Of a DNA stretch of 64,000 bases, positions 7,426 through 40,304 are shown one piece after another. The notes beneath the pieces were generated by a model, which ran no database searches, had not been told where the DNA came from, and was given only the letters and a program-made list of their open reading frames with translations. The stretch is from assembly GCA_035911175.1 (NCBI GenBank), contig JAMHWA010000034.1, forward strand, positions 5,206-69,205, in the 5' to 3' direction. Numbering within the stretch: the first letter of the stretch is position 1; every line of letters begins with the position of its first letter. The DNA is from Alphaproteobacteria bacterium. GTDB taxonomy: Bacteria > Pseudomonadota > Alphaproteobacteria > Rickettsiales > UBA3002. Made by a program: the position numbers and the translations under genes.

Positions 7426-7438
7426 ACCATGCTATCCA

Positions 7439-7454
7439 TTAAGTTTTGGTTAAC
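7439..7454 (+). promoter_or_regulatory. CtrA-type box TTAA-N7-TTAAC
   Basis: The sequence reads TTAA GTTTTGG TTAAC, an exact match to the Caulobacter-type CtrA consensus. It lies in the divergent region between ORF 6043-7425 and the ppx-family gene. Confidence 0.45.
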
Positions 7455-7600
7455 GCCAATCGCGAAAATCCAAGTAATATCAAGCACTCGCGATGATATG
7501 ACCCAAATTGCTGAAATTTTTAGGGAATTCTCAGTTTTTGGGCAGTGGCTTGTTCGCGTGGGGCTTGTATCTCGTGGCTAGTTAACGCTATAGTGGTGGC

Positions 7601-8671
7601 ATGAAACAGGAAATCCCGCATTTAGATGAACTCACGCACGAAGCCGCCATGTCGGATTCGGTGCGCACGGATAGTGGCGAGCTTTACGCCGCACTCGACC
7701 TTGGCACGAATAATTGCCGTTTGCTGATCGCGAAACCCAGCTTCCAGCAGCACACGCAGCACAAAACCCTGAAGGTGGTGGATAGCTACTCGCGCATAGT
7801 GCGTTTGGGCGAGGGGGTGAGCGATACGGGCCGTTTGAGCGAGGAAGCCATGCGCCGCACGATGCGCGCGCTGTCGACCTGCAAGCAAAAGCTGGATCGC
7901 TACAACATCGCCAAGCTGCGCTTTGTGGCGACGGAGGCGTGTCGCCGCGCCAGTAATGCTGAGCATTTCCTCGCGCGAGTGAAGGACGAGCTCGGCCTGC
8001 CGATTGATATTATTTCAAACGAAGAAGAGGCACGGCTCGCGTTTCTGGGCTGTTCGTCGCTGTTGATGAAAGACACCAGCCACGCCTTAGCGTTCGATAT
8101 TGGCGGCGGTAGCACCGAGTTCATGTGGGTGAAGATCGACCCCGAGCAGCCACTCAACAGCCATAAGCGCCATTTGATTCAAGATTGGGTGAGCTTGCCT
8201 TACGGCGTCATGAACATGAGCGAGCAATTCGGCGGGCCTGCCTTCACCGAGATGTATTTCGAGGAGATTGTTGCCAAAATTAGTAGCCTGCTGACGCCGA
8301 TGGAGCGCGACAACCAAATCGCCGCGCGCATGTGGAAGGAAGATGTGCAAATGCTCTCCACCAGCGGCACGGTGACGACACTTGCCGCCATCCACCTCGA
8401 TTTGCCGCATTACGACCGTTCAAAGATTGACGGGATAAAGTTGAGTATCTCCGATATTCGCGGTGCCACGCAGACGTTGATGCGTATGAGCCCCGCCGCC
8501 CGCGCCGCCCACCCCTGCATTGGTTCGAGCCGTACCGATTTTATCCTATCGGGCTGTGCGATTTTCGAGGCCATTGCCCGAACCTTCCCGATCGATAAGA
8601 TTACGATTGCGGATAGAGGTGTGCGCGAGGGAATAATCGTCAGCCTGATGCGGGAAGTGATACCCGTCTAA
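7601..8671 (+). CDS. Ppx/GppA family phosphatase (short, single-module form)
   Basis: 356 aa. LDLGTNNCRLLIA and FDIGGGSTEF, the ASKHA-fold Ppx/GppA motifs. The start could be the later Met at 7649. Confidence 0.8.
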   Translation: MKQEIPHLDELTHEAAMSDSVRTDSGELYAALDLGTNNCRLLIAKPSFQQHTQHKTLKVVDSYSRIVRLGEGVSDTGRLSEEAMRRTMRALSTCKQKLDRYNIAKLRFVATEACRRASNAEHFLARVKDELGLPIDIISNEEEARLAFLGCSSLLMKDTSHALAFDIGGGSTEFMWVKIDPEQPLNSHKRHLIQDWVSLPYGVMNMSEQFGGPAFTEMYFEEIVAKISSLLTPMERDNQIAARMWKEDVQMLSTSGTVTTLAAIHLDLPHYDRSKIDGIKLSISDIRGATQTLMRMSPAARAAHPCIGSSRTDFILSGCAIFEAIARTFPIDKITIADRGVREGIIVSLMREVIPV

Positions 8672-9363
8672 TGGCCAAAGCACCCACCAAGAAAATCAAT
8701 AAGAAATCCGGCTCTCGCGGGCTGCATGTGAATGTGAAAACCGCGAAGAAGCGCAGCAACAGCAGTGCGCGCTGGCTGGCGCGGCAATTGAACGACCCCT
8801 ATGTGGCCAAAGCCAAGGCCGAAGGCTATCGCAGCCGCGCGGCGTTCAAGCTGATTGATCTGGATGAGAAATATAAGCTGCTCAAGCCCGGCATGCGCAT
8901 TGTAGATTTGGGCTGCGCACCCGGCGGGTGGAGCCAAGTGGCGGTGGCCAAGCTGGGCGGGCATGGCAAAATTGTCGGCTGCGATTTGCTGGAGGTGCCA
9001 AAGATTGTCGGCGCCGAGCTGATTGTGCAGGATTTTTTGGCCGAGGACGCACCCGACATCATGAAAAATCTGCTGGGTGGCAAGGCCGACCTTGTCATGA
9101 GCGACATGGCCGCCAACACCACTGGCCATACGCCGACAGACCATTTGCGCATCATTCATTTGTGTGAACTGGCCTATCTCTTCGCCACCGAAGTGCTAGA
9201 GCAGGGCGGTGCTTTCATCTGTAAAGTGCTCAAAGGCGGCACCGAGAGCGAACTGCTTAAGCAAATGCAGCGCGATTTTGCCACTGTGAAGCACGCCAAA
9301 CCCAAATCCTCCCGCGCTGATTCGGCCGAGAGCTACGTGGTTGCAACAGGGTTTCGGGGTTAG
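8671..9363 (+). CDS. rlmE: 23S rRNA 2'-O-ribose U2552 methyltransferase
   Basis: 230 aa. RSRAAFKLIDLDEKYKLLKPGMRIVDLGCAPGGWSQV, an FtsJ/RlmE signature. The start codon overlaps the ppx stop by 1 nt (TAATG). Confidence 0.9.
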   Translation: MAKAPTKKINKKSGSRGLHVNVKTAKKRSNSSARWLARQLNDPYVAKAKAEGYRSRAAFKLIDLDEKYKLLKPGMRIVDLGCAPGGWSQVAVAKLGGHGKIVGCDLLEVPKIVGAELIVQDFLAEDAPDIMKNLLGGKADLVMSDMAANTTGHTPTDHLRIIHLCELAYLFATEVLEQGGAFICKVLKGGTESELLKQMQRDFATVKHAKPKSSRADSAESYVVATGFRG

Positions 9364-17029: not shown

Positions 17030-17656
17030 ATGGAATGGAAACTATCGCAGGGATTGACCGCCTACCCCGAGGCGCTTGCCACCATGGCGGCACGGGTGGA
17101 AGCGATTCAGCACGGCAAAGCCGACGAGCTGGTCTGGCTGGTGGAGCACCCGCCTCTTTACACCCTTGGCACCAGTGCCAAGGGCGGGGATGTGTTGGGC
17201 AAGGGCTTCCCAACCTATGAAACAGGGCGAGGCGGGCAGGTGACCTATCATGGCCCCAGCCAGCGCGTGGCCTATGTGATGCGCGATTTAAAAAAGCATG
17301 CGGGTGCAGCGGGGCCTGATTTACGTGCCTATGTGCAGCAATTAGAGCAGTGGATCATCCTGACCCTCGCCCAGTTCGGGATCGAGGGGTTTTTGCGCGA
17401 TGGCCGTGTGGGGGTGTGGGTCAACACACCGACGGGCGAGGCCAAAATTGCTGCACTCGGTGTGCGGGTACAAAAATGGGTGACCAGCCATGGCATTGCG
17501 CTGAACGTGAACCCCGACCTATCCCATTATGCGGGCATTGTGCCTTGCGGTATCCGCGAGTTTGGCGTCACCAGCATGCACCAGCTTGGGGTGACGGCAA
17601 CGATGGACGAGGTGGATGCAACGCTGAAAGCGCAGTGGGGCAGGGTGTTTGCCTAA
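17030..17656 (+). CDS. lipB: octanoyltransferase (lipoyl(octanoyl) transferase)
   Basis: [12 protein letters not shown] and [10 protein letters not shown] motifs. The track ORF starts at 16979. The Met at 17030 gives the usual LipB length. Confidence 0.85.
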
Positions 17657-17934
17657 GCCGTTGGCCGTGATGTGAAGCCTTGCGCAATCTCTTCGGTCCA
17701 ATCGGCCACCTCCACCTGTGTCACGCGTGCGGCAAGTGGGCCCTCGTGGCAGGTAGCAATCATTGCTTCAATAGTGGCGGTATCGCCCGCAATGACGGCC
17801 TCGACGGTGCCTTCGGTGCGGTTGCGCACCCAACCGTTCAGGCCAAGCTGGCGGGCGTTAGCGCTCATCCATGCGCGATAGCCCACGCCTTGCACGCGGC
17901 CATGGATGAGGAGATGTTTTGCGGTCACAGCCAT
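17653..17934 (-). CDS. acyP: acylphosphatase
   Basis: [12 protein letters not shown] and [12 protein letters not shown] motifs. The track ORF (to 18093) was trimmed to the Met that gives a ~93-aa protein. The start is uncertain. Confidence 0.75.
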
Positions 17935-18006
17935 CGATTTTTTGCTGCATTGCATGGAGGTTATTTGCCTTACGCCAAGAATATGCGTAAATAGAGGGAA
18001 AGCAAA

Positions 18007-19284
18007 ATGAAAGTGATTCCTATGTCGAGCCTTCCTCCCACCACCCAAACCATCGGCGCGCTGAGCCAAGAATTGATTGCCAAGGGCAAGCAATTCTATA
18101 CCCCCAACTACAAGCCGCGCGAGATGATCCTCGACCGTGGGAAGGGCAGCACCGTATGGGATCTCGATGGGCGCGATTACATTGATTTAGGCTCAGGCAT
18201 TGCGGTGTGCAGCCTTGGCCACCAAGACCCCGATTTGCTGGCGGCACTGGATGTTCAAAGCCGCAAGCTTTGGCACACCAGCAATATTTTCTACACCGAG
18301 CCGCCTATTCACTTAGCGGAAAAATTGGTGGAGCTGGCCTGCTTTGCCAAGAAAGTGTTTTTCTGTAATTCGGGCGCCGAGGCCAATGAAGCCGCCATCA
18401 AGCTGGTGCGTAAATACGCGGCGGACGCGGGACGCCCGCCTGAGAAACGCAACATCATCAGCTTTAACGGTTCGTTCCATGGCCGCACCTTGGCCACCGT
18501 TACCCTCACCGCGCAGCCCAAATACCATATTGGGTTTGAGCCAATGCCAACAGGCTTCATCTATTGCGATGTGTTCAACGACGAAGCGGCGATTGAAAAA
18601 TTGGTCGATGATTCTGTCTGTGCGATTTTTGTTGAGCCGGTGCAGGGCGAAGGCGGCGTGATGCCTGCTAAACCAGGATTTTTGCAGCATTTGCGCATGT
18701 TATGCGATAAGGTCGGCGCGCTGTTGGTGGTCGATGAAATTCAGGCCGGTATGGGCCGTACGGGTAGTTTGTTCGCCCATTGCCAAGATGGCGTCATTCC
18801 CGATGTGGTGACGCTGGCTAAGGCGCTGGGTGGCGGCTTGCCTATTGGAGCGATGCTGGTAGGGGGCAAGGCGGCGGATGTGCTGCAATTCGGCACCCAC
18901 GGCACTACCTTTGGCGGTAACCCCGTCATGGCGGCGGTGGCACTTGCATCGGTCACCAAACTCGCGCGGCAGGATATTCTGGAAAACGTGGCCGATCGCG
19001 GCGAGCAGTTGCGTGCGGGGCTGGCGGATATCAATGCCGAGCTTGGGTTATTTAAGGAAATCCGCGGCCGCGGACTGATGATTGGGGCGGAATTGCTGCC
19101 TGAGCATGCCGGTAAATCGGGCGATATTTCGGAAGCCGCGCGCAAAGCCGGCACATTGGTTCTGGTCGCAGGACCGAACGTCATGCGCTTTTTGCCGCCG
19201 CTGGTGATTACGCAGGCAGAAATGGCCGAAGGGCTGAAGCGGTTCAAAGCAGCGCTGGTGAACTATAAGGCGAGTATCGCCTGA
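18007..19284 (+). CDS. astC: acetylornithine/succinylornithine aminotransferase (class III PLP)
   Basis: 425 aa. NSGAEANEAAIKL, VDEIQAGMGRTG, TLAKALGGGLP. Assigned to the AST pathway by context with astA, astD and astB downstream. An ArgD/DapC role is not excluded. Confidence 0.8.
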   Translation: MKVIPMSSLPPTTQTIGALSQELIAKGKQFYTPNYKPREMILDRGKGSTVWDLDGRDYIDLGSGIAVCSLGHQDPDLLAALDVQSRKLWHTSNIFYTEPPIHLAEKLVELACFAKKVFFCNSGAEANEAAIKLVRKYAADAGRPPEKRNIISFNGSFHGRTLATVTLTAQPKYHIGFEPMPTGFIYCDVFNDEAAIEKLVDDSVCAIFVEPVQGEGGVMPAKPGFLQHLRMLCDKVGALLVVDEIQAGMGRTGSLFAHCQDGVIPDVVTLAKALGGGLPIGAMLVGGKAADVLQFGTHGTTFGGNPVMAAVALASVTKLARQDILENVADRGEQLRAGLADINAELGLFKEIRGRGLMIGAELLPEHAGKSGDISEAARKAGTLVLVAGPNVMRFLPPLVITQAEMAEGLKRFKAALVNYKASIA

Positions 19285-20492
19285 TGGATAGGGCCACACG
19301 CGAGGTGCTCGATTGGGTTGCCACGCAAGAAGCGGCGATGGTTGCTCTCACCGAACAATGGTCGGCGATGAATTCGGGCAGCTACAACCTTGCAGGGTTG
19401 CGCGCTATGCGCGAAGCATTGGCCGGCGCATTTGCACCGCTAGGTGGGGTGGCCGATATAATTCCGCTTGCACCCATCACCCAAATCAACGCGAAGGGCG
19501 AGGCGGTGGAAGTGCCGATGGCTGAGGCACTGCGCATTAGTAAAAGGCCAAATGCCGCACTGCAAGTGCTGCTCGTTGGTCATATGGATACGGTGTATGG
19601 CATTGACCATCCCTTTCAAAAAACGACCAAAATTTCTGAGAATATACTGAACGGCCCGGGCGTGGCCGACCTGAAGGGCGGCCTTGCGATTATGCTGCAT
19701 GCGCTGATGGCGCTGGAGCGCAGCCCATGGGCAGAGAATATCGGCTGGCAGGTGTTGCTGAATCCCGACGAAGAAATCGGCAGCGTGGCGAGTGACCCGC
19801 TGCTGAAAGAGGCTGCGAAAGGCAAAATGCTGGGGCTGGTGTATGAGCCCGCACTGGCCGATGGCACACTGGCAGGCGCGCGCAAAGGCAGCGGCAACTT
19901 CACGCTGGTAGTGCGTGGCCGCGCGGCACATGCGGGCCGTAACCCTGAGGATGGAAGAAATGCCATCGTTGCCTTGGCCGATATCACACAACGCGTGTTT
20001 ACACTCAATGGCAAGCGCGAGGGACTGACCTTGAACCCTGCGAAAATTGACGGTGGTGGGGCGCTGAATGTAGTGCCTGATTTGGCCATTTTGCGCTTCA
20101 ACATCCGCACCCGCGAAGTGGCGGATGAGGCATGGGTGCTGGCCGAGTTGCATAAGCTTGTGGATGAGTGGTGCAATAAGGATGGCTACCACGCTGAACT
20201 ACATGGCCATTTCACCAGAAAGCCCAAACCCATGTCGCCTGAAGTTCAAAAAGTGTTCGACCTTGTGCAGCAATGCGGGGCGGAACTTGGCCTCACGATT
20301 GGCATAAAACCCTCGGGCGGGTGCTGCGATGGCAATAATTTATGGCACCATGGCTTGCCTAATGTCGACACACTCGGCGTGCGCGGCGCGAACATCCATT
20401 CGGCGGATGAGGTGGCCTACCTCGATAGTTTTGTTGAGCGCGCGCAGCTTTCCGCACTCATTCTCATGAAACTGGCGCAGACGAACGCTTAG
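19284..20492 (+). CDS. M20 family metallopeptidase (carboxypeptidase G2 / desuccinylase-like)
   Basis: 402 aa. LLVGHMDTVY, GPGVADLKGG, NPDEEIGS, GRAAHAG. The start overlaps the astC stop (TGATG). Confidence 0.8.
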   Translation: MDRATREVLDWVATQEAAMVALTEQWSAMNSGSYNLAGLRAMREALAGAFAPLGGVADIIPLAPITQINAKGEAVEVPMAEALRISKRPNAALQVLLVGHMDTVYGIDHPFQKTTKISENILNGPGVADLKGGLAIMLHALMALERSPWAENIGWQVLLNPDEEIGSVASDPLLKEAAKGKMLGLVYEPALADGTLAGARKGSGNFTLVVRGRAAHAGRNPEDGRNAIVALADITQRVFTLNGKREGLTLNPAKIDGGGALNVVPDLAILRFNIRTREVADEAWVLAELHKLVDEWCNKDGYHAELHGHFTRKPKPMSPEVQKVFDLVQQCGAELGLTIGIKPSGGCCDGNNLWHHGLPNVDTLGVRGANIHSADEVAYLDSFVERAQLSALILMKLAQTNA

Positions 20493-20501
20493 CTGGCGGC
20501 G

Positions 20502-21311
20502 CTATTTCCAGTAATCGACGAATTTCTCGGCGAAAATATACTGGTACATGGGGTCACGGGTTTGCGCATTGGCCTGCTCGATAATGGGGCGGATGACTGA
20601 GGCAGGTTGCTTGAACCACACCCACAAGCGCGAGGCGACATTATAGACCGAGCAGGAATAGCCATGCTGCGTGAATAGCGCCTGCATGGATGCATTGGTG
20701 AAGAACGAGCAGTGCACCGACAACAAATAGAACCAATCCGGATTTTGTGGCACATGCTCGGCCACCAAGGTGTGCAGAATCATCACCCCATCATCACTCA
20801 CCAAATCAAAGATAGCATCGCATTGCTTCTTGAAGCGCAGATGTTCCATCACCGCTGTGTGCATGACGACGTTGAACGCGCGCGGGGTTAACTCATCCGC
20901 CCGCAAATAACCTTTGGCAGGGTTGCTGCTATGTTCATATTTCTCGACATGCAGTTGATGATCCTTTGCCAATGCAGCGCACAGTTTGCCATCACCTGCG
21001 CCATAATCCAACCAGCGGCCTTTGGGCAATAACCCGAGCGCGGCCACATCACCAATGATGGCAGATTGGGCAACAAAACGCTCCATCCAGCGGGGGTCTT
21101 CGGGGTTTTCATCCGTCCCTTGGTAGAGCGATACCCATTGATTGTTGAGTGTTTCCCACTGTGCGTCGGTCATTTCGTAATGCGTGCGCGAGAACACAAA
21201 GCCGCAATCCTTGCAGCGGTCATACTCCACCCAACCAAGGTTGAACTGCTCGAAATGCTTGCGCATGAACGGGGCCGTGTCACCACCACATACACTACAC
21301 GCTATTGACAT
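20502..21311 (-). CDS. class I SAM-dependent methyltransferase with an N-terminal zinc ribbon
   Basis: 269 aa. CSVCGG...CKDCGF are four Cys in ribbon spacing. WLDYGAGDGKL is a SAM motif I. GGAG lies 8 nt upstream of the ATG. Confidence 0.7.
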   Translation of the reverse strand: MSIACSVCGGDTAPFMRKHFEQFNLGWVEYDRCKDCGFVFSRTHYEMTDAQWETLNNQWVSLYQGTDENPEDPRWMERFVAQSAIIGDVAALGLLPKGRWLDYGAGDGKLCAALAKDHQLHVEKYEHSSNPAKGYLRADELTPRAFNVVMHTAVMEHLRFKKQCDAIFDLVSDDGVMILHTLVAEHVPQNPDWFYLLSVHCSFFTNASMQALFTQHGYSCSVYNVASRLWVWFKQPASVIRPIIEQANAQTRDPMYQYIFAEKFVDYWK

Positions 21312-21383
21312 AGATGGCTCCGCTTCCTAGTTTCAACATGCGCTGCAACGCTACCATGGCACCCCCATAAAGGCCAGTATCAT

Positions 21384-23123
21384 ATGAAATTTTATCCACT
21401 CGCATTGCTCGAAAATTATACTCTGGAAACGCTCACGCACACGTGCGTACTTTCCGATTATGTGGCGGGGGTGCACGCCACGCCCGATGCATTTTTTAAA
21501 AAAGAAGCGGATGGGTCGGTGGCATGGGTGATCGACCGCCATTGCGACCATGCAGGCGGCCAACTGCGCTTAAGCGATGGTGATAGCTGCAAGGCAGTGT
21601 GCCCACTGCATCTGTGGGAGTTTGATTTTAACTCGCTCAGCTATTCCAAAATTCCCAATCAAACCTTCGAGCACATTACCAAAAAATCCATCCCATTCTC
21701 GGTGAACGATGGCGTGCTGAGCTACCAGATTAACAAGCAGGCATTACGCATTCCTGAAACGGTGACTCACACTAAAACCACGCCCACGCAGGCGGAATTG
21801 CGGTATATCACCCATGCCTCGGTGATGCTAACCATTGGCGGCGTGAAGCTGCTCACCGATCCGTGGTTTGTGGGCGAATGCCTTGCGAGTGGCTGGTGGC
21901 TAAAATATCCGCCGAAGGCCGATGCATGGGAGCTGCTTGCAAGCGCCGACATACTCTATATTTCGCATAACCATCCGGATCACCTGCACGAGGAAACACT
22001 GGCGCGGCTGCGGCGTGATATCCCGATTATTGTTCCCCAGTTCGACACCGATTCCGTCGCTGCCCCGCTGCGCGCCATGGGGTTCACCAATGTTATCGAG
22101 CTTGAGAAAAAGCGCCTCTACCGCCTGAACGATAGCGAGTTGCTGATCAGCATTCTGCCCACGGGCGACCATCGCGATGATAGTGGGTTATTCATTACTC
22201 AGGGTGATTTCTCGGCCATTCTGACGGTCGATTGCGTCGGCACAAACCAATATGTGTTGCCCCATAACCCAACATTCCTGCTCACCAACTTCTCCTCGGG
22301 CGCATCGGGTTGGCCGCTATGCTACGATGTGCTTGGCTCGTTCGATGAGCGCTCCAAGATTGTCACCAAAAACCGTGGCAATGCGTTGGTTGAGGTGATG
22401 AAATATATCGGAGTTACGAAGCCCAAGGCCTACATGCCGTATGCAGGGTTTTTCCATGAGCGCGCCCCACGGGATGCGGTGATTCAGCAATATAACGTGA
22501 AGAACGGGCCCGAGAGCATCACCGATAAAGTGAAGGCCAAATTCCCTGATGTTGTTGCCGCAAACCCGCTGGAGCACGATGTGATGACGTGGCAGGGTGG
22601 GCAGGTATCTCTCAGCACCGTTAATCAGCCACCGCTGTTCACCTATGATGCGGCGATGATTAACCAATACCTCGCGGCTCAGCGGGCGTTGCTAAAGCAT
22701 TTCGATATCCATAAAATCGCCGATTATTTCTGCCAATCCGAGTTTCAGGACGCGCTGATTGTCTATCTGGTGCTGACCGATGACGATTACACCCCCGAAG
22801 GGCAAAGCCTGCGGATTGATTTTTCGACGACGCCCATCAGTTATCGCATTGTCGATAGCGCAGCGCTCACCGCAGAATTTGAGGCGCTTACGGAGTTGAA
22901 TGGCTTCCACCATTTGCTGATTAAGGTGCGCACTGATAGCATGTGGCAGATTGTGTTCTATGGCCGCCCGATTGAGGAGCTCACGCTTGGCTTCCAATGC
23001 CGTATCGACCGCAAGCCCGATCAATACAACGCCGCATTCTGGAAGCACTACACCACCTATGGCGCACCCATGCTGCGCTCTGGCGAAGACCGTCTGCTCT
23101 ATAAGCTGCTCGAGGGGGCGTAG
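21384..23123 (+). CDS. Rieske [2Fe-2S] + metallo-beta-lactamase-fold monooxygenase, CMP-N-acetylneuraminate hydroxylase (CMAH)-like
   Basis: 579 aa. Rieske ligands are C-D-H in RHCDHAGG and C-P-L-H in AVCPLHLWEF. Then DPWFVGECLASGWWLKYPP, ADILYISHNHPDHL, TVDCVG, SSGASGWP, MPYAGFF and a C-terminal GFQCRIDRKPDQYNAAFWKHY. These are co-linear with blocks I recall from mammalian CMAH. Confidence 0.75.
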   Translation: MKFYPLALLENYTLETLTHTCVLSDYVAGVHATPDAFFKKEADGSVAWVIDRHCDHAGGQLRLSDGDSCKAVCPLHLWEFDFNSLSYSKIPNQTFEHITKKSIPFSVNDGVLSYQINKQALRIPETVTHTKTTPTQAELRYITHASVMLTIGGVKLLTDPWFVGECLASGWWLKYPPKADAWELLASADILYISHNHPDHLHEETLARLRRDIPIIVPQFDTDSVAAPLRAMGFTNVIELEKKRLYRLNDSELLISILPTGDHRDDSGLFITQGDFSAILTVDCVGTNQYVLPHNPTFLLTNFSSGASGWPLCYDVLGSFDERSKIVTKNRGNALVEVMKYIGVTKPKAYMPYAGFFHERAPRDAVIQQYNVKNGPESITDKVKAKFPDVVAANPLEHDVMTWQGGQVSLSTVNQPPLFTYDAAMINQYLAAQRALLKHFDIHKIADYFCQSEFQDALIVYLVLTDDDYTPEGQSLRIDFSTTPISYRIVDSAALTAEFEALTELNGFHHLLIKVRTDSMWQIVFYGRPIEELTLGFQCRIDRKPDQYNAAFWKHYTTYGAPMLRSGEDRLLYKLLEGA

Positions 23124-23894
23124 GTGGCTTCAAAGAAAATGCGCATCGCCCTTGGTTTCTTTCTAGCCGTCATTTTGATTGGTATCGCGTTTTTTTACAC
23201 TGCTTATCAGTATTTGTATCGGTTAAAAACTGCCTGCTCTCAGGAACGGGTAATGCTTGCTACTGGGCATAAATTCAACAACGCGCCATCTAAAGAGGCA
23301 TGCGAAGGCAAGAAAATCGTCGATCTTGAAACGGGTACCTATCAACTTGGTGAGCTAACCTTCAAAATCCCTCGGGCTTACTTATGGCAAGAAAAATATA
23401 CCGAAGGACAAGTTAAGAATATCTACCTTAGCATGTATTATCCTTCGTTTGAACCTGAACGCGCAGATTCAAACGGTTTGGACCCGAGCTTAATTCATGC
23501 CACTATTCACCAGTGTTTTTTAAAGGAATGTAACCAGAAAAAGACCCCAGATTATGATCTAAAAATTACTATTCCTCGATACAAGTCAACTTATAGCCAA
23601 TCCGATTATGTCCCAGAATTAGATTTATGGCGTTATGTCATAATTGATCAAATGACTACAGTAAGAAAAAGTGAAGTTTATTTCCGAGGAACTCAGGAAA
23701 ATCCAACTTACTGGTTCATCTGCACCGTCTCTGACCGCAACCCTCATTGTGAAGGGGATGCTTGGTTCAAAAATGGAAGCAGCATCAGTTATAGATTCCA
23801 TTATAGCCAACTGAATGATCATGAAAAGATTGTAGGTGGCATTCACAGTAAGATTGATAATTTTCTAATTAAGGGAGCCCCTCATGCCAATTAG
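23124..23894 (+). CDS. hypothetical N-terminally anchored, Cys-rich protein (AT-rich orphan)
   Basis: 256 aa. GTG start directly after the CMAH-like stop, with GAGGGGG 5 nt upstream. One TM (IALGFFLAVILIGIAFFY). Seven Cys in the extracytoplasmic part. Composition is clearly AT-richer than the neighbours. Confidence 0.6.
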   Translation: MASKKMRIALGFFLAVILIGIAFFYTAYQYLYRLKTACSQERVMLATGHKFNNAPSKEACEGKKIVDLETGTYQLGELTFKIPRAYLWQEKYTEGQVKNIYLSMYYPSFEPERADSNGLDPSLIHATIHQCFLKECNQKKTPDYDLKITIPRYKSTYSQSDYVPELDLWRYVIIDQMTTVRKSEVYFRGTQENPTYWFICTVSDRNPHCEGDAWFKNGSSISYRFHYSQLNDHEKIVGGIHSKIDNFLIKGAPHAN

Positions 23895-23935
23895 CCTTTC
23901 GAGGCTTAGCTAGAGCTGTCGCTCATCAGAGCATT

Positions 23936-24021
23936 TGGTGGAGGGGGAAGGATTTGAACCTTCGAACTCCTAAGAGGGCGGATTTACAGTCCGCTGCCAT
24001 TGACCACTCGACCACCCCTCC
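23936..24021 (-). tRNA. tRNA-Tyr (anticodon GTA), CCA encoded
   Basis: Reverse complement is GGAGGGGTGGTCGAGTGGTCAATGGCAGCGGACTGTAAATCCGCCCTCTTAGGAGTTCGAAGGTTCAAATCCTTCCCCCTCCACCA. Acceptor stem pairs 7/7. Anticodon loop is CTGTAAA. Long variable arm. Confidence 0.9.
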
Positions 24022-24164
24022 ACGTCACTGAAAGCCATTGCTTCAGCCTAGGTTGTTGCGGTGCGCACGTGGTGCGCGCGGCAAAACCGAGACGGGGTTA
24101 TGCCGCGAAAATGGTGGTCTGTAAACCCTTAATTTTAAGGTTAGGGATTGCCGCCGATGATGGC

Positions 24165-24731
24165 CTAATGTTCGCGCACCGAACTGGTGACCACACCCCA
24201 AATGGTGACGCCTGTTTCTGGGTTCACGGGGATGGGGGAATATTCGGGGTTAGCGGGCATCAGGTAGGTGCGGCCTTGTTTGATGATGAGGAATTTCACC
24301 GTCAGCGCCCCATCCACCGCAGCGATGACAATTTTGCCGTGCTTGGGTGGCGCGGTGCGGTCGACCACCAGCAGGTCACCATCGCGGATATTGGCGTCGA
24401 TCATGGAGTCCCCCGCCGCGCGCACCAAAAAGGTCTCCTCTGGCTTGCGCACGAGATGGGCGTTCAAATCCATGCGGCTTTCCACATGGTCATCCGCAAA
24501 GGCGGGTGAGCCAGCCTGCACGGTGGCACTGTAGAGCGGAATTTTGAAGGCTTTGGATTCCACGAACCGAATCACATCCCCCACCAAACTGGCTGGCACG
24601 CGCACGCGTTCAGTAATTTCGCCAAAGCGTCCGCTGCCTTTGGGGCGCCCAGCCCCTTGGCGTTTGCCACCATGGATGGGGGTGACATTACTTGCCGCGC
24701 TTGCGGCTTTATTTTTACTGGCTTGTTTCAT
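24165..24731 (-). CDS. S24 (LexA/UmuD-type) autopeptidase with a short basic non-HTH N-terminus
   Basis: GGAGG lies 5 nt upstream of the Met at 24731. VQAGSP is an Ala-Gly cleavage-site context. GDSM carries the Ser and TVKF the Lys of the dyad. The N-terminus is KRQGAGRPKGSGR. No umuC or dinB next to it. Confidence 0.75.
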   Translation of the reverse strand: MKQASKNKAASAASNVTPIHGGKRQGAGRPKGSGRFGEITERVRVPASLVGDVIRFVESKAFKIPLYSATVQAGSPAFADDHVESRMDLNAHLVRKPEETFLVRAAGDSMIDANIRDGDLLVVDRTAPPKHGKIVIAAVDGALTVKFLIIKQGRTYLMPANPEYSPIPVNPETGVTIWGVVTSSVREH

Positions 24732-24921: not shown

Positions 24922-25941
24922 GTGTTTCTGCGCCCTGCGACGATGAATGACCAAGAAGCTGTGCTGGAGCTGGCCCGCCAAGCAGGATTTGGCATGACCA
25001 GCCTGCCGCCCGATGCGGCGGTGCTGCGCGAAAAGATCGAGGCATCGGTGGCGAGTTTTGCGGGGGTCTACCCGAAAAAGGGGCAGGAGAGCTTCTTTTT
25101 TGTGCTCGAAGATAGCGAAAATGGTGGGCACATCGCGGGCACGTGCGGCATCAAGGCGCATATTGGCCTAAGCCAGCCCTTTTATTCCTATAAACTCACC
25201 ACCATCACCCAAGTTTCGACCCAGCTCGATATTTTCAGCAAACAGACCATGCTGCAGGTGACGAACGACCTGACGGGGGCAACGGAAGTGGGTTCACTGT
25301 TCTTGGAGCCATCCTATCGGCGCGACCGCTTGGGGAAAATGATGTCGCTGGCGCGCTTTATGTTCATGGCCGCGTTTCCGCAGCATTTTGCCGACCAAGT
25401 GATTGCTGAAATGCGTGGGGTGCATGATGTTGAGGGTAATGCACCGTTTTATAATGCGTTGCCGAAGAAGTTCTTCCAGATGGGTTTTGCCAAGGCGGAT
25501 TATATCAATGCCACGCAGGGCAACCAATTCATCAATGACCTCATGCCGAAATATCCGATTTACCTGAGCCTCATGCCCAAATCGGCACAGGCGGCAGTGG
25601 GGATGGTTAATTCGGCCTCGGAACCCGCGAAGGCGATGCTCGAACGTCAGGGGTTTAAGTATACAGGCTATGTCGATATTTTCGATGGTGGGCCAACCCT
25701 GATTGCTGAGCGTACTGCGATTGATGTGGTGGCCAAAAGCAAACGCGGCCAAGTCGTTTCGATAGCGGAATTGCCTGAGGAAACAAGTAAATTTATGGCT
25801 AGTAACGATCAGTTTGAAGGGTTTCGCTGCGCTGTCGGGCGGTTGGTAGAAGCGGCGGATGGCGGCGTAAGTATCACCCCTCGCTTGGCGCGCAGGGCAG
25901 GGGTCGCACTTGGCGATGTGGTGCGTTACTATCCCGTCTAA
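24922..25941 (+). CDS. astA: arginine N-succinyltransferase
   Basis: 339 aa with a GTG start and an upstream GAGG. The N-terminus LRPATMNDQEAVLELARQAGFGMTSLPPD parallels E. coli AstA (IRPVERSD...GGGLTSLPAN). Confidence 0.85.
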   Translation: MFLRPATMNDQEAVLELARQAGFGMTSLPPDAAVLREKIEASVASFAGVYPKKGQESFFFVLEDSENGGHIAGTCGIKAHIGLSQPFYSYKLTTITQVSTQLDIFSKQTMLQVTNDLTGATEVGSLFLEPSYRRDRLGKMMSLARFMFMAAFPQHFADQVIAEMRGVHDVEGNAPFYNALPKKFFQMGFAKADYINATQGNQFINDLMPKYPIYLSLMPKSAQAAVGMVNSASEPAKAMLERQGFKYTGYVDIFDGGPTLIAERTAIDVVAKSKRGQVVSIAELPEETSKFMASNDQFEGFRCAVGRLVEAADGGVSITPRLARRAGVALGDVVRYYPV

Positions 25942-31480: not shown

Positions 31481-32680
31481 TTAACGGCTTGGTGAAGGCT
31501 GAGCTGGGGTGGTGCTATTGGGGGTTTGTGCAGGTGCGGAGGCTTCTGCAGGCGCACTGACAGGCAACGAGGGTAACTCTTTTGCAGAGCTAGAGATAAA
31601 TTGTTCCGCTAAATCCTTGGTCGAGAGGGATGTTTTATATTTATCGACAACCATTTTCTTTGTATCCCCAAGGCATTTGATATCTAGATGATCCTGCGTT
31701 TGTAACCAACCCGTCGAAGTAAATACGGGTGTGCCAGTTCCAGATTCAATCAGTATGGGCTTGGTGCAGTACTTGGCGCTTGCCGTTTCAATGGCGGGCA
31801 CAAGCTCCCCCAGCAGTTTGTTGGAGCGATCAGACAGCGTAACCCATCCGGCTGTTTCGGGCTGCGTAAGCCTGCCTAGCGCGGCAACGTCTAGCGGGGT
31901 GGATTTAAGAACGCGCATACGTCGTTCTGCTACTACTTGATGCGTGTCATCCATCGCGGCGGGGTAGAGATAGTCAGCAGTTATTGCTGGGTATCCTGCA
32001 ACTATCTCGCTAAAATCGAGATTGGTCTTTTTGTAGCCATGAGAGTTATCAATCGCCTCGATTATGTTGCCGGTATTGGCGCTTACAATGAATTGATGGC
32101 CTCCCAAAAACTCAGGAATTGCGGTGTTGGAGCCCATGATTCCTCCGGCCGCGGCATAGAACTGCGTCGCTTCCTTACGAGTCCCTTGGGTAACAAGGGT
32201 CTGGTCGGCCTCGTGCATCAGCAGGCCGCGTATGAATGTTAACTGCTCGCAATCATACTCGTCTTTTGGGGTAAGATGATTGAGTGAGCGCGTATCATTG
32301 CCGTCGTCACGTGCCTGTCGATAGTTGGCGGCGTCGAAGGTTGTGCCCTTAATCGCATCGTACACATGCTGAGCTAAGGCTTGCTCGTAGTCTGCCTGCT
32401 GCTGAGGTGAGCTTAACTGGTGCAATGCCTTGTCGGACGCCACATTTTCGCGCAGAATCGCTAGAATCTCATTGTATTCTTTCGCAACGGCATCCGTTCC
32501 GTTCTTATCAAACGTTATCACGAGGCTGGGAATGGATTCCATTCGGCCGGTTTGCGCAATATGCGCGAACGACGTATAATATTCACCCTTTTGGATGCTG
32601 GGAATGAGCAGAGGATAGGCCAGCGCCTGAGGCTTTTCGGGTGTCGATGGCGTTGCCGCCTGCGTTGGCTCGGTGCTCAT
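31481..32680 (-). CDS. hypothetical protein (orphan, 399 aa)
   Basis: GGAG lies 8 nt upstream of the ATG. No signal peptide. Pro/Ser/Thr-rich at both ends. C-terminus is ...PAQPSPSR. Lies between clpA and the S1 protease on the same strand. Confidence 0.65.
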   Translation of the reverse strand: MSTEPTQAATPSTPEKPQALAYPLLIPSIQKGEYYTSFAHIAQTGRMESIPSLVITFDKNGTDAVAKEYNEILAILRENVASDKALHQLSSPQQQADYEQALAQHVYDAIKGTTFDAANYRQARDDGNDTRSLNHLTPKDEYDCEQLTFIRGLLMHEADQTLVTQGTRKEATQFYAAAGGIMGSNTAIPEFLGGHQFIVSANTGNIIEAIDNSHGYKKTNLDFSEIVAGYPAITADYLYPAAMDDTHQVVAERRMRVLKSTPLDVAALGRLTQPETAGWVTLSDRSNKLLGELVPAIETASAKYCTKPILIESGTGTPVFTSTGWLQTQDHLDIKCLGDTKKMVVDKYKTSLSTKDLAEQFISSSAKELPSLPVSAPAEASAPAQTPNSTTPAQPSPSR

Positions 32681-37208: not shown

Positions 37209-40001
<2,793 letters not shown>

Positions 40002-40185
40002 AGCATTTCGATTCGTCGAAATCGGCTTGATTGCAAATTTATGATACCCTCACGTACAGTGCAAAGCAGTGCTTTGTTCTGTAGTTAGTGAGTGTCTGAG
40101 TTGAACTAATAGAACACAGCTTGTAGATACCTATAAAATATGGGCGGGAATGAAAGTTCCCGCCCGCTCAAAAGGCCGTTTCGAC

Positions 40186-40304
40186 GGTCTGGTGATTATA
40201 GCGAAGGATGATCCACACGTACCCATTCCGAACACGACCGTGAAACCCTTCAGCGCTGATGGTACTAAGTCTCAAGGCTTGGGAGAGTAGGACGTCGCCA
40301 GACC
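40186..40304 (+). rRNA. rrf: 5S ribosomal RNA
   Basis: GGTCTGGTG...CCCATTCCGAACACGACCGTGAAAC...GGGAGAGTAGGACGTCGCCAGACC. Helix I closes 5' GGTCTGG with 3' CCAGACC. Flanked by an extended complementary stem (AAAAGGCCG.../...CGGCCTTTT). Confidence 0.9.

What the first reader, a model, noticed from the sequence alone, without database searches (positions are those of the whole stretch)
20502..23123. Bacterial homologue of animal CMP-Neu5Ac hydroxylase (Rieske + MBL fold), divergently paired with a zinc-ribbon methyltransferase
ORF 21384-23123 (579 aa) has an N-terminal Rieske centre. The ligands are C-x-H in RHCDHAGG and C-x-x-H in AVCPLHLWEF. This is followed by an MBL-like domain.

A series of blocks appears co-linear with mammalian CMAH as I recall it, listed here as window versus CMAH:
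- DPWFVGECLASGWWLKYPP vs DPWLIGPAFARGWWLLHEPP
- ADILYISHNHPDHL vs ADLIYISHMHSDHL
- TVDCVG vs TVDCTR
- SSGASGWP vs AGGASGFP
- MPYAGFF vs CPFAGYF
- GFQCRIDRKPDQYNAAFWKHY vs GFQTRLQRDPDIYHHLFWNHF

The length is also nearly the same. CMAH converts CMP-Neu5Ac to CMP-Neu5Gc in deuterostomes. To my knowledge, bacterial homologues have no assigned function.

The gene shares a 72-bp divergent promoter region with a SAM methyltransferase carrying a 4-Cys ribbon (CSVCGG...CKDCGF). That architecture is reminiscent of NDP-sugar methyltransferases. The two genes could form a minimal nucleotide-sugar or nonulosonate tailoring cassette (hydroxylation plus methylation). The cassette sits inside an amino-acid catabolic operon, with no sialic, legionaminic or pseudaminic acid synthase nearby.
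Basis: partly seen in the sequence, partly recalled or inferred. Interest (0 to 1): 0.75.

Follow-up and report, generated by a model that had tools for sequence, protein, structure and literature searches.

The report
Bacterial CMAH-type hydroxylase–methyltransferase sugar-tailoring islet
A small accessory gene pair, a true bacterial relative of the animal enzyme that makes the sialic acid Neu5Gc plus a dedicated zinc-ribbon methyltransferase, has been dropped into an arginine-breakdown operon and most likely decorates a nucleotide-activated surface sugar, though its substrate has not been tested.

Summary
ORF 21384-23123 (579 aa) is an end-to-end, colinear homologue of animal CMP-Neu5Ac hydroxylase: 28% identity over 525 residues, E 6e-53; profile-profile probability 100%, 504 columns. 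Its Rieske ligands and HxHxDH motif are invariant across the family. It sits 72 bp from a divergent 269-aa SAM methyltransferase with a conserved 4-Cys ribbon.

New findings:
- The pair is a conserved module in its clade. It is usually joined to a DegT aminotransferase, a TPR/GT41 glycosyltransferase and a second methyltransferase.
- Across 75 genomic loci of the wider family, 30 carry NeuA/NeuB/NeuC-type nonulosonate genes within 10 kb, and 16 have a methyltransferase gene immediately adjacent.
- The methyltransferase model most resembles zinc-domain dTDP-sugar methyltransferases.
- In this window the pair lies on a 3.7-kb islet (20482-24164, with a low-GC ORF and tRNA-Tyr). The islet is absent from relatives, under purifying selection (dN/dS about 0.05), and more diverged between strains than its flanks.

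Best reading: a hydroxylase plus methyltransferase cassette tailoring an N-acylated nucleotide sugar. The substrate is unproven, and the 64-kb window has no nonulosonate genes. Bacterial CMAH homologues were already reported, and NamH is a characterised distant relative. I rate this a new variant of a known kind, of moderate interest.

The parts
21384..23123 (+). CMAH-type monooxygenase, 579 aa, with an N-terminal Rieske [2Fe-2S] domain and a C-terminal metallo-beta-lactamase-fold domain
   Evidence: ORF, translation, Pfam Rieske plus Lactamase_B_3/B_2. BLASTP to animal CMAH gives E 6e-53 over 525 aa; hhalign gives probability 100%. AF2 model pLDDT is 91.3. dN/dS is 0.05 against the sister strain.
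21543..21611 (+). Rieske cluster ligands C54, H56, C73 and H76 (C-x-H ... C-x-x-H)
   Evidence: Present in the translation. Invariant in 43 family members. Aligned to C54/H56 and C75/H78 of animal CMAH.
21966..21983 (+). HxHxDH metal-binding motif (H195, H197, D199, H200) of the MBL-fold domain. Further invariant carboxylates are D262 (nt 22167-22169) and D283 (nt 22230-22232).
   Evidence: Invariant columns. The profile alignment to the diiron hydroxylases FrsH and CmlA places window D262 and D283 at chain positions 379 and 405 of 4jo0 (my count in the printed alignment). From memory these are the CmlA iron ligands E377 and D403. No invariant His occurs after H200.
20502..21311 (-). Class I SAM-dependent methyltransferase (269 aa) with an N-terminal 4-Cys zinc ribbon; conserved divergent partner of the hydroxylase
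   Evidence: Translation; Methyltransf_23 E 4e-13. Partner in all clade loci. AF2 pLDDT 93.5. Foldseek top hits are TcaB9, KijD1 and MtmC. dN/dS is 0.046.
21204..21299 (-). Zinc-ribbon cysteines C5, C8, C33 and C36 of the methyltransferase
   Evidence: Seen. Invariant or nearly invariant in 29 homologues (positions there are one lower because the query lacked the start Met).
20988..21008 (-). SAM-binding motif I (D102-x-G-x-G-x-G) of the methyltransferase
   Evidence: Invariant or nearly invariant D/G columns.
21312..21383 (.). 72-bp divergent intergenic region between the two genes
   Evidence: The same spacing (about 71-80 bp) occurs in L001, L005, L006, L007, L093 and L094, with partly conserved sequence. 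One promoter-like match at 21356-21383 is not above chance.
23124..23894 (+). Low-GC ORF of unknown function with an N-terminal transmembrane helix (a gene caller elsewhere starts it about 129 nt later, giving 214 aa). It is part of the islet but not of the conserved module.
   Evidence: Translation. GC is 39-45%. No Pfam or NCBIfam hit. No relatives in other loci. It is only 71-84% identical between two strains that are otherwise 99-100% identical.
23936..24021 (-). tRNA-Tyr (GTA) at the right end of the islet
   Evidence: ARAGORN; Rfam. Absent from the syntenic site in relative L086.
20482..24164 (.). 3.7-kb accessory islet (methyltransferase, hydroxylase, low-GC ORF, tRNA-Tyr) inserted between the M20 hydrolase gene and the S24-peptidase/astA genes of the AST locus
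   Evidence: blastn against relative L086 leaves 20482-24164 unmatched. A close relative has astC, M20 and astA contiguous. The islet interior (about 20758-24354) is 71-96% identical to strain L085, against 99-100% for the flanks.

Best explanation
**What it is.** The two divergent genes are a self-contained, horizontally exchanged cassette that tailors a surface-glycan sugar.

**The hydroxylase.** The 579-aa protein is a CMAH-type monooxygenase. Its N-terminal Rieske [2Fe-2S] centre would take electrons from a host ferredoxin or reductase that is not encoded nearby. It would pass them to a carboxylate-rich iron site in the metallo-beta-lactamase-fold domain. There O2 would be activated to hydroxylate a C-H bond. 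The most likely target is the methyl of an N-acetyl group on a nucleotide-activated amino sugar, giving an N-glycolyl group. That is the reaction of both characterised relatives: CMAH on CMP-Neu5Ac and NamH on UDP-MurNAc.

**The methyltransferase.** The zinc-ribbon SAM methyltransferase would then methylate the same nucleotide sugar. It could act on the new hydroxyl or on another position.

**Likely substrate.** The most probable class is a CMP-linked 5,7-diacetamido nonulosonate of the legionaminic or pseudaminic type. A dTDP- or UDP-4-acetamido-4,6-dideoxyhexose is the main alternative.

**Shown versus inferred.** Shown here: homology, conserved metal ligands, conserved gene pairing, islet status and purifying selection. 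Inferred: the reaction, the substrate, the order of steps and the electron donor.
For: **Homology and active site.**
- Homology to animal CMAH is end-to-end.
- The Rieske ligands and HxHxDH motif are invariant, D262 and D283 are invariant carboxylates, and there is no invariant His after the motif.
- The closest solved MBL domains are the O2-activating diiron hydroxylases FrsH and CmlA, by sequence and by fold.

**The pair is conserved and functional.**
- The divergent methyltransferase partner occurs in all clade loci at 61-83% identity. Contig lengths of methyltransferase hits mirror those of hydroxylase hits.
- Both genes are under purifying selection: dN/dS 0.05 and 0.046.

**Gene neighbourhoods point to sugars.**
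- The clade module also holds a DegT aminotransferase, a TPR/GT41 glycosyltransferase and a Methyltransf_24 gene. In some genomes it adds a NeuD/PglB/VioB acetyltransferase or rmlA.
- Of 75 family loci, 30 have NeuA/NeuB/NeuC-type genes within 10 kb. The NJ sister clade includes L009, whose cluster runs DegT-NeuC-NeuB-NTP transferase/CBS-NeuA-hydroxylase.
- Methyltransferase genes of two unrelated families are immediately adjacent in 16 loci, 11 of them within 0-14 nt.
- A 42%-identical methyltransferase homologue in Nostoc sits beside a different Rieske oxygenase, with DegT, an acyltransferase, GT41/TPR and Methyltransf_24 genes.
- The methyltransferase model most resembles dTDP-sugar methyltransferases, which as I recall have an N-terminal zinc domain.
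Against: - No biochemical data exist for any member of this bacterial family in the literature searched.
- The window has no NeuA/B/C, DegT or GT41 gene in 64 kb, so the pathway that supplies the substrate is unseen here.
- The window carries only two of the five module genes.
- Identity to CMAH is only 28%, so substrate specificity cannot be transferred.
- The methyltransferase matches NDP-sugar methyltransferases by fold only (TM 0.56-0.59). It has no sequence-level PDB match to them and lacks their C-terminal domain.
- No ferredoxin or reductase gene is adjacent.
- Gene calling in the loci was a crude longest-ORF method, and the tree is neighbour-joining only.
Confidence: 0.55

Rival explanations
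1. It is a genuine CMP-Neu5Ac hydroxylase, so the bacterium makes Neu5Gc de novo exactly as deuterostomes do.
For: It has full-length CMAH homology with the same domain order and almost the same length. JGI annotates many family members as CMP-N-acetylneuraminate monooxygenase. Many family loci contain NeuA/NeuB/NeuC-type genes.
Against: Identity is only 28%. The window has no neuA/B/C genes. The clade module and many family loci include DegT aminotransferases and NTP-transferase/CBS genes. From general knowledge, those genes serve legionaminic, pseudaminic or other diamino-sugar routes, not Neu5Ac. The dedicated methyltransferase partner has no counterpart in the animal pathway.
Confidence: 0.1
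2. The pair acts on a dTDP- or UDP-linked 4-amino-4,6-dideoxyhexose (viosamine or bacillosamine type) rather than a nonulosonate. The methyltransferase C- or O-methylates the NDP-sugar, and the oxygenase hydroxylates its N-acyl group.
For: The adjacent DegT scores best against DesI-type dTDP-4-keto-6-deoxyglucose aminotransferase (E 1.6e-43). rmlA and a NeuD/PglB/VioB acetyltransferase are nearby in L093 and L094. The methyltransferase fold is closest to dTDP-sugar C3-methyltransferases. Distant methyltransferase homologues sit in O-antigen-like clusters with DegT, PglD-like and acyl-carrier genes and no NeuB. No NeuB lies within 10 kb in any window-clade locus.
Against: All DegT scores are far below the curated cut-offs, and LegC and PseC models also hit. 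The NJ sister clades lie in NeuA/NeuB/NeuC clusters. Both characterised relatives of the oxygenase act on 3-carbon-extended or lactyl-bearing acetamido sugars, not on dideoxyhexoses.
Confidence: 0.2
3. The oxygenase and methyltransferase modify a non-carbohydrate substrate such as a lipid, a small metabolite or a carrier-bound amino acid. The link to glycan genes would then be coincidental for this clade.
For: The closest solved MBL-fold oxygenases, CmlA and FrsH, are named beta-hydroxylase and non-heme diiron monooxygenase; from memory they hydroxylate carrier-protein-bound amino acids. In the window the pair stands alone among amino-acid catabolism genes.
Against: Similarity to CmlA and FrsH covers only the MBL core (residues about 136-284), whereas similarity to CMAH spans the whole protein. 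The pair is absent from relatives that have intact AST operons. In all other clade members it abuts sugar aminotransferase and glycosyltransferase genes.
Confidence: 0.1
4. It is an MBL-fold metallo-hydrolase, as NCBI names it, or a decaying remnant of the five-gene module with no present function.
For: NCBI calls homologues 'MBL fold metallo-hydrolase'. The window retains only two of the five module genes.
Against: The Rieske ligands are invariant across the family, and there is no invariant His after the HxHxDH motif. From general knowledge, hydrolytic MBL enzymes have such histidines in motifs 3 and 5. Both ORFs are intact with dN/dS of about 0.05. The same two-gene arrangement persists in several independent metagenome samples.
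Confidence: 0.05

Closest known systems
[quoted passage not shown]
   Same: It has the same architecture and nearly the same length (579 vs 577 aa). The alignment is colinear from residue 54 to 556, with 28% identity and E 6e-53. The Rieske C-x-H/C-x-x-H ligands, the HxHxDH motif and several signature blocks are shared (DPW..G..GWW, YISH.H.DHL, TVDC, GASG.P, P.AG.F, GFQ.R..R.PD.Y...FW.H).
   Different: The host is bacterial. No CMP-Neu5Ac synthesis genes are in the window. It has a dedicated divergent methyltransferase partner that the animal system lacks. No cytochrome b5 or b5-reductase partner is evident. The substrate is unknown. It belongs to a distinct clade, a single 50%-identity cluster among 1.84 billion representatives.
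NamH, UDP-N-acetylmuramic acid hydroxylase of Actinobacteria
   Same: It shares a Rieske domain and a homologous MBL-fold oxygenase domain (31% identity over 229 aa, E 4e-23). NamH also hydroxylates an N-acetyl group on a nucleotide sugar (PMC6481270).
   Different: The domain order is permuted: in the NamH-like protein the MBL domain is N-terminal and the Rieske domain C-terminal. The window protein does not hit the NamH-associated Pfam family PF25451. The C-terminal 200 residues shared with CMAH are not shared with NamH.
Other bacterial CMAH-like proteins embedded in nonulosonate (NeuA/NeuB/NeuC) clusters; reported to exist (Simakov 2015; Peri 2018, PMC5767959) but uncharacterised
   Same: They belong to the same family at 29-43% identity with the same invariant residues. 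They are often next to a methyltransferase.
   Different: The window clade uses a different methyltransferase family (zinc-ribbon Methyltransf_23, divergent rather than co-directional). It travels with DegT, TPR/GT41 and Methyltransf_24 genes, without NeuB within 10 kb. In this window it is reduced to the two-gene core on an islet.
CmlA and FrsH, diiron beta-hydroxylases with an MBL fold
   Same: They are the closest solved structures for the catalytic domain (E 2.4e-14 to 7e-12 by profile; Foldseek E about 1e-10). The HxHxDH motif and two carboxylate ligand positions are shared.
   Different: They have no Rieske domain. From memory they act on carrier-protein-bound amino acids. Similarity is limited to about 150-330 residues (TM about 0.3 over the whole query).
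TcaB9, KijD1 and MtmC, dTDP-hexose C3-methyltransferases
   Same: They are the best structural matches for the methyltransferase (Foldseek E 4e-10 to 4e-8, TMq 0.55-0.59). As I recall, they combine an N-terminal 4-Cys zinc domain with a Rossmann SAM domain, the arrangement seen here.
   Different: The window protein is 269 aa, against about 405 aa; from memory the extra length in those enzymes is a C-terminal sugar-binding domain. There is no detectable sequence similarity and no Pfam Methyltransf_13/14 hit. Whether it methylates C, O or N is unknown.

Membership tests
CMAH-type Rieske/MBL-fold monooxygenase (KEGG K08080-like) | Full-length, colinear sequence homology to animal CMAH | tested here: met
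   BLASTP gives 28% identity over 525 aa, E 6e-53. hhalign gives probability 100%, E 2.3e-75, 504 columns.
CMAH-type Rieske/MBL-fold monooxygenase (KEGG K08080-like) | Rieske [2Fe-2S] ligands C-x-H ... C-x-x-H in the N-terminal domain | tested here: met
   C54, H56, C73 and H76 are present, invariant in 43 sequences, and aligned to the animal ligands.
CMAH-type Rieske/MBL-fold monooxygenase (KEGG K08080-like) | MBL-fold domain with HxHxDH and conserved carboxylates, located C-terminal to the Rieske domain | tested here: met
   Pfam domain order. H195, H197, D199, H200, D262 and D283 are invariant. The fold model has pLDDT 91.3.
CMAH-type Rieske/MBL-fold monooxygenase (KEGG K08080-like) | Catalyses CMP-Neu5Ac to CMP-Neu5Gc | not testable with these tools
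   This needs an enzyme assay. No report on any bacterial member was found.
CMAH-type Rieske/MBL-fold monooxygenase (KEGG K08080-like) | Genomic association with CMP-sialic or nonulosonic acid biosynthesis genes | tested here: not met
   There are no NeuA/B/C-type genes in the 64-kb window, nor within 10 kb in window-clade loci. The feature is met in the wider family, at 30 of 75 loci.
NamH (UDP-MurNAc hydroxylase) | Domain order MBL-fold then Rieske, with the NamH-specific Pfam PF25451 | tested here: not met
   The NamH-like P0119 has the MBL domain at residues 6-224 and the Rieske domain at 465-512; the window protein is the reverse. The window protein has no PF25451 hit.
Hydrolytic metallo-beta-lactamase superfamily enzymes | Conserved histidines of MBL motifs 3 and 5 completing a di-zinc site, and no redox cofactor domain | tested here: not met
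   There is no invariant His after H200; carboxylates D262, D266 and D283 are conserved instead, and a Rieske domain is present. The nearest structures are oxygenases.
NDP-hexose C-methyltransferases (TcaB9/KijD1 type) | N-terminal 4-Cys zinc domain plus SAM Rossmann domain | tested here: met
   The four Cys are conserved. These enzymes take the top 17 Foldseek PDB hits.
NDP-hexose C-methyltransferases (TcaB9/KijD1 type) | C-terminal sugar-binding domain (about 400 aa in total) and sequence-family membership (Pfam Methyltransf_13/14) | tested here: not met
   The protein is 269 aa. Only Methyltransf_23 is hit. There is no sequence match in the PDB.
tRNA-targeted integrative genomic island | Integrase gene and direct repeats duplicating the tRNA 3' end | tested here: not met
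   No integrase lies in 20482-24164. No significant flanking repeats were found. The tRNA-Tyr itself is absent from the relative's syntenic site.

The most novel reading that the evidence does not exclude
The CMAH-type oxygenase and its dedicated methyltransferase form a previously undescribed bacterial route that first N-glycolylates and then O-methylates a nucleotide-activated nonulosonate or amino sugar, giving an N-methoxyacetyl-type group. This would be the first de novo N-glycolylation of a surface sugar in Gram-negative bacteria. It would imply that the several dozen CMAH-like genes found in NeuA/NeuB/NeuC clusters across Proteobacteria, Bacteroidota, Cyanobacteria, Bdellovibrionota and gastric Helicobacter make Neu5Gc-like epitopes.
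Probability: 0.3. Interest if true: 0.75.

Novelty: new variant of a known kind. Interest (0 to 1): 0.55.

Why it matters
N-glycolyl sugars are rare. A review (PMC6481270) notes that reports concern only Neu5Gc and actinobacterial N-glycolylmuramic acid. Neu5Gc matters medically as a xeno-autoantigen.

Bacterial CMAH homologues have been listed (PMC5767959), but none has been given a function. Two patterns found here give a concrete, testable hypothesis: some bacteria may hydroxylate, and then methylate, the N-acyl groups of nonulosonates or related amino sugars.
- The family repeatedly sits inside nonulosonate biosynthesis clusters.
- It is repeatedly coupled to a methyltransferase.

The window's two-gene islet is the smallest version of such a module, which makes it a convenient pair for heterologous expression. 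It is also more diverged between closely related strains than its flanks, which would fit a role in surface-antigen variation.

If the enzymes prove active, they could serve as tools for chemoenzymatic synthesis of modified sialic-acid-like sugars. They would also bear on the proposed microbial or algal origin of deuterostome CMAH.

Tried and rejected
- **AlphaFold-database search.** Foldseek against afdb50 was meant to test structural identity with animal CMAH, but that library was not available. I used sequence and profile comparisons with real CMAH sequences instead.
- **Source organism.** The nearest genomes are MAGs labelled Rickettsiales or Alphaproteobacteria.
- **Insertion mechanism.** I looked for att-like repeats or an integrase flanking the islet and found none. 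The mechanism of insertion is therefore unknown.
- **Mobile carriers.** No full-length relative occurs on plasmids or phages; only partial MBL-domain hits in Actinobacteria and haloarchaea.
- **Methyltransferase catalytic pair.** I considered whether the invariant E-H pair corresponds to the TcaB9 E224/H225 catalytic pair. The profile alignments show it is the generic 'vlEHl' motif of class I methyltransferases, so I dropped the idea.
- **Apparent paralogues.** A suspected tandem duplication of the hydroxylase in Pannonibacter was an artefact of my distance formula (corrected).
- **Electron donor.** I searched conserved small neighbours for a ferredoxin or reductase partner. By inspection of their sequences, the candidates in the gammaproteobacterial clade look like Sox-type and exosortase-related genes (my reading; no family search was run on them).
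- **FlmG resemblance.** The TPR/GT41 neighbour has the same N-terminal TPR plus C-terminal glycosyltransferase layout as the flagellin glycosyltransferase FlmG (PMC7591256). I had no FlmG sequence, so homology was not tested; this remains a lead only.
- **Literature.** Searches for a characterised bacterial CMAH-type enzyme found none.

Full report
**1. The observation**

ORF 21384-23123 (+) encodes 579 aa, and ORF 20502-21311 (-) encodes 269 aa. They are separated by exactly 72 bp.

Pfam finds a Rieske domain (residues 38-93) followed by Lactamase_B_3/B_2 (residues 138-258) in the long protein. It finds Methyltransf_23 in the short one.

The surrounding genes are the arginine succinyltransferase pathway: astC at 18007-19284, an M20 hydrolase at 19284-20492, astA at 24922-25941, astD and astB. 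lipB and mgtE lie upstream.

**2. Is it really a CMAH homologue?**

A mouse CMAH sequence that I recalled from memory found named vertebrate CMAH proteins at up to 97% identity.
- BLASTP of the window protein against Sarcophilus CMAH (577 aa) aligns residues 54-556 with 54-558. Identity is 28% and E is 6e-53, with every quoted block in register.
- A profile of 43 bacterial relatives against a profile of 14 vertebrate CMAHs gives probability 100%, E 2.3e-75 and 504 aligned columns.

In the bacterial alignment the following are invariant: the Rieske ligands C54, H56, C73 and H76; the HxHxDH motif (H195, H197, D199, H200); and the carboxylates D262, D266 and D283. No histidine after H200 is invariant.

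The AlphaFold model is confident (pLDDT 91.3). No CMAH or NamH structure is in the PDB. The nearest solved proteins, by sequence and by fold, are FrsH and CmlA, which are diiron hydroxylases built on an MBL fold. In that alignment window D262 and D283 fall at chain positions 379 and 405 of 4jo0, by my count in the printed alignment. From memory these are the CmlA iron ligands E377 and D403. This supports an O2-activating iron site rather than a hydrolytic zinc site. That is an inference from motifs, not a measurement.

NamH-like proteins match only the MBL core and the Rieske domain, and they have the two domains in the opposite order. The window protein is therefore CMAH-type, not NamH-type.

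The family is rare. Only 136 clusters reach E<=1e-30 among 1.84 billion 50%-identity representatives, and the window clade is a single cluster.

**3. The methyltransferase partner**

The partner family is small, with 45 hits. Down to about 61% identity, every hit lies on a contig whose length matches that of a hydroxylase hit.

In every clade locus examined, the two genes are divergent. They are about 71-80 bp apart in L001-L007, L093 and L094, and roughly 235-310 bp apart in L010. The four cysteines and the SAM motif are conserved.

The methyltransferase model (pLDDT 93.5) has as its 17 best PDB matches TcaB9, KijD1 and MtmC. These are dTDP-sugar C3-methyltransferases, which as I recall carry an N-terminal zinc domain. 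The match is by fold only. The protein is about 135 residues shorter than those enzymes (269 vs about 405 aa), and no sequence-level match exists.

**4. Neighbourhoods elsewhere**

*Window clade.* The pair is usually the end of a five-gene block: Methyltransf_24, a TPR/GT41 glycosyltransferase, a DegT aminotransferase, the zinc-ribbon methyltransferase, then the hydroxylase on the opposite strand. The block sits in different chromosomal contexts in different genomes. In one genome it is accompanied by a NeuD/PglB/VioB acetyltransferase (L094). In another it is accompanied by rmlA and a PseC-like aminotransferase (L093).

*Wider family.* A scan of species-representative genomes gave 78 loci from Alpha-, Beta- and Gammaproteobacteria, Bacteroidota, Cyanobacteria, Bdellovibrionota, Marinimicrobia and gastric Helicobacter. 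I clustered crude ORF calls from those loci and annotated the clusters with Pfam. Counts below are per locus among the 75 loci left after omitting three that yielded no clustered gene.
- A CMP-sugar cytidylyltransferase (NeuA type) occurs in 27 loci.
- NeuB occurs in 22 loci.
- A UDP-GlcNAc 2-epimerase (NeuC type) occurs in 22 loci.
- 30 of 75 loci have at least one of these three.
- A methyltransferase gene is within 300 nt in 16 loci. In 12 of them it is a co-directional Methyltransf_11 gene, and 11 of those lie 0-14 nt from the hydroxylase gene.

*Sister clades.* In a rough neighbour-joining tree, the window clade is sister to alphaproteobacterial members such as L009. The L009 cluster reads DegT-NeuC-NeuB-NTP transferase/CBS-NeuA-hydroxylase. 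Next out is a gammaproteobacterial clade in NeuA/B/C clusters.

*Distant methyltransferase homologues.* Homologues at 42-45% identity lie in O-antigen-like clusters. In Nostoc sphaeroides one sits directly beside a different Rieske oxygenase, together with DegT, an acyltransferase, GT41/TPR and Methyltransf_24 genes. That is the same gene set with a non-homologous oxygenase. It argues that the oxygenase-methyltransferase pairing is functional.

**5. Status in this genome**

Three lines of evidence show that the pair is an accessory insertion.
- A relative at about 80% nucleotide identity (L086) is syntenic on both sides but lacks window 20482-24164. Its astC-M20 block is inverted.
- A closer relative, whose astA falls in the same 90%-identity cluster, has astC, M20 and astA directly contiguous.
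- The missing 3.7 kb holds the methyltransferase, the hydroxylase, a low-GC (39-45%) membrane-anchored ORF of unknown function, and tRNA-Tyr.

No integrase or flanking repeats were found.

A sister strain (L085) has the same arrangement. There the flanks are 99-100% identical, but the islet interior is only 71-96% identical. Even so, dN/dS is 0.05 for the hydroxylase (111 synonymous and 23 non-synonymous differences) and 0.046 for the methyltransferase. Both genes are therefore maintained by selection, and the locus looks like a recombination hot spot.

The rest of the 64 kb is housekeeping, and no nonulosonate, DegT or GT41 genes were found in it.

**6. Interpretation**

*Shown.* This is a bona fide CMAH-type Rieske/MBL-fold protein with intact cofactor ligands. 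It has an obligate zinc-ribbon methyltransferase partner within its clade. The clade and the wider family are associated with amino-sugar and nonulosonate glycan genes. In this genome the pair is an accessory islet under purifying selection.

*Inferred.* The enzyme hydroxylates an N-acyl group of a nucleotide-activated amino sugar, as CMAH and NamH both do. The methyltransferase modifies the same sugar. The electron donor is a host ferredoxin system.

*Candidate substrates.* A CMP-linked legionaminic or pseudaminic-type acid fits the sister-clade contexts. A dTDP- or UDP-4-acetamido-4,6-dideoxyhexose fits the DesI-like DegT, the rmlA and VioB-type neighbours, and the dTDP-sugar-methyltransferase-like fold. 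These cannot be told apart with the available data.

*Less likely.* Literal CMP-Neu5Ac hydroxylase activity, a non-sugar substrate, a hydrolase, or a dead remnant.

**7. Relation to what is known**

Prokaryotic CMAH homologues have been noted. Peri et al. found 60 prokaryotic hits and cite Simakov et al. 2015 (PMC5767959). CMAH is recognised as a distant homologue of NamH (PMC6481270). JGI annotation already calls many family members CMP-N-acetylneuraminate monooxygenase.

A possible N-glycolyl legionaminic acid has been reported in Tannerella forsythia UB4 without a gene assignment (PMC5378307).

I found no paper that assigns a function to the bacterial CMAH-type family, describes its embedding in nonulosonate clusters, or describes the methyltransferase pairing. 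The library searched is incomplete.

I therefore class the feature as a new variant of a known kind, of moderate interest. It is a compact, testable entry point to the question of bacterial N-glycolylation, but it has no experimental support yet.

**8. Limits**
- Gene calls in the fetched loci were longest-ORF heuristics.
- The tree is neighbour-joining on BLOSUM distances.
- Only 64 kb of the genome could be inspected.

Noticed in passing
window 37209-40303: A 23S rRNA gene (37209-40003) and a 5S rRNA gene (40188-40303) are present, but no 16S rRNA gene occurs anywhere in the 64-kb window. This indicates an unlinked rRNA operon.
   Followed up: no
window 31481-32680 (-), especially 31555-32154: There is a second strain-variable spot. 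It is about 84% identical to sister strain L085 while its flanks are 99-100% identical. It lies inside a 399-aa ORF with no Pfam match.
   Followed up: no
window 23124-23894 (+): This low-GC (39-45%) ORF has an N-terminal transmembrane helix. It has no family match and no relatives in any fetched locus. It is the most diverged segment between the two strains, at 71% identity.
   Followed up: partly
window 17652-20481 compared with L086 6642-9092: The astC-M20 block is inverted in a related genome. The roughly 380-bp acylphosphatase-gene region (17652-18030) is specific to the window lineage. The islet sits at one breakpoint of this rearrangement.
   Followed up: partly
window 56292-58237 (-): A GT4 glycosyltransferase gene overlaps a gene with a GINT1_N-like domain (glucosamine inositolphosphorylceramide transferase N-terminal family). 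These are the only other glycan-related genes in the window.
   Followed up: no
P0119 (NamH-like protein from the homologue search): Relative to CMAH, the NamH-like protein has a permuted domain order. Its MBL-fold domain is at residues 6-224 and its Rieske domain at 465-512.
   Followed up: partly
L022, L024, L027, L032, L034, L039, L041, L046, L054, L058, L059, L078: A co-directional Methyltransf_11 gene lies within 0-14 nt of the CMAH-like gene (107 nt in L078). The hosts are Bradyrhizobium, Pannonibacter, Roseibium, Pontibacter, Chitinophaga/Ferruginibacter and Flavobacteriales genomes and MAGs (organism names). This is a second, independent hydroxylase-methyltransferase pairing.
   Followed up: partly
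L091 (Nostoc sphaeroides CP045226), 6891-8852: A 42%-identical homologue of the zinc-ribbon methyltransferase lies directly after an unrelated Rieske/ring-hydroxylating-type oxygenase. The cluster also has KAS III, ACP, SDR, an acyltransferase, DegT, GT2, GT4/Methyltransf_24 and GT41/TPR genes.
   Followed up: partly
L031, L064, L074, L080: Non-pylori gastric Helicobacter species (H. cynogastricus, H. baculiformis, H. cetorum, H. bizzozeronii) carry a CMAH-type gene. None of the recurrent nonulosonate gene clusters was detected within 10 kb.
   Followed up: no
L011-L017, L023, L029, L048: A gammaproteobacterial clade keeps a fixed cluster: aminotransferase, NeuB, NeuC, PLD-like, an unknown gene, a methyltransferase, NeuA, an unknown gene, then the CMAH-like gene, followed by a large (about 860 aa) protein not submitted to any family search. 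By inspection, nearby genes look like Sox-type and exosortase/PEP-CTERM genes; these too were not scanned.
   Followed up: partly
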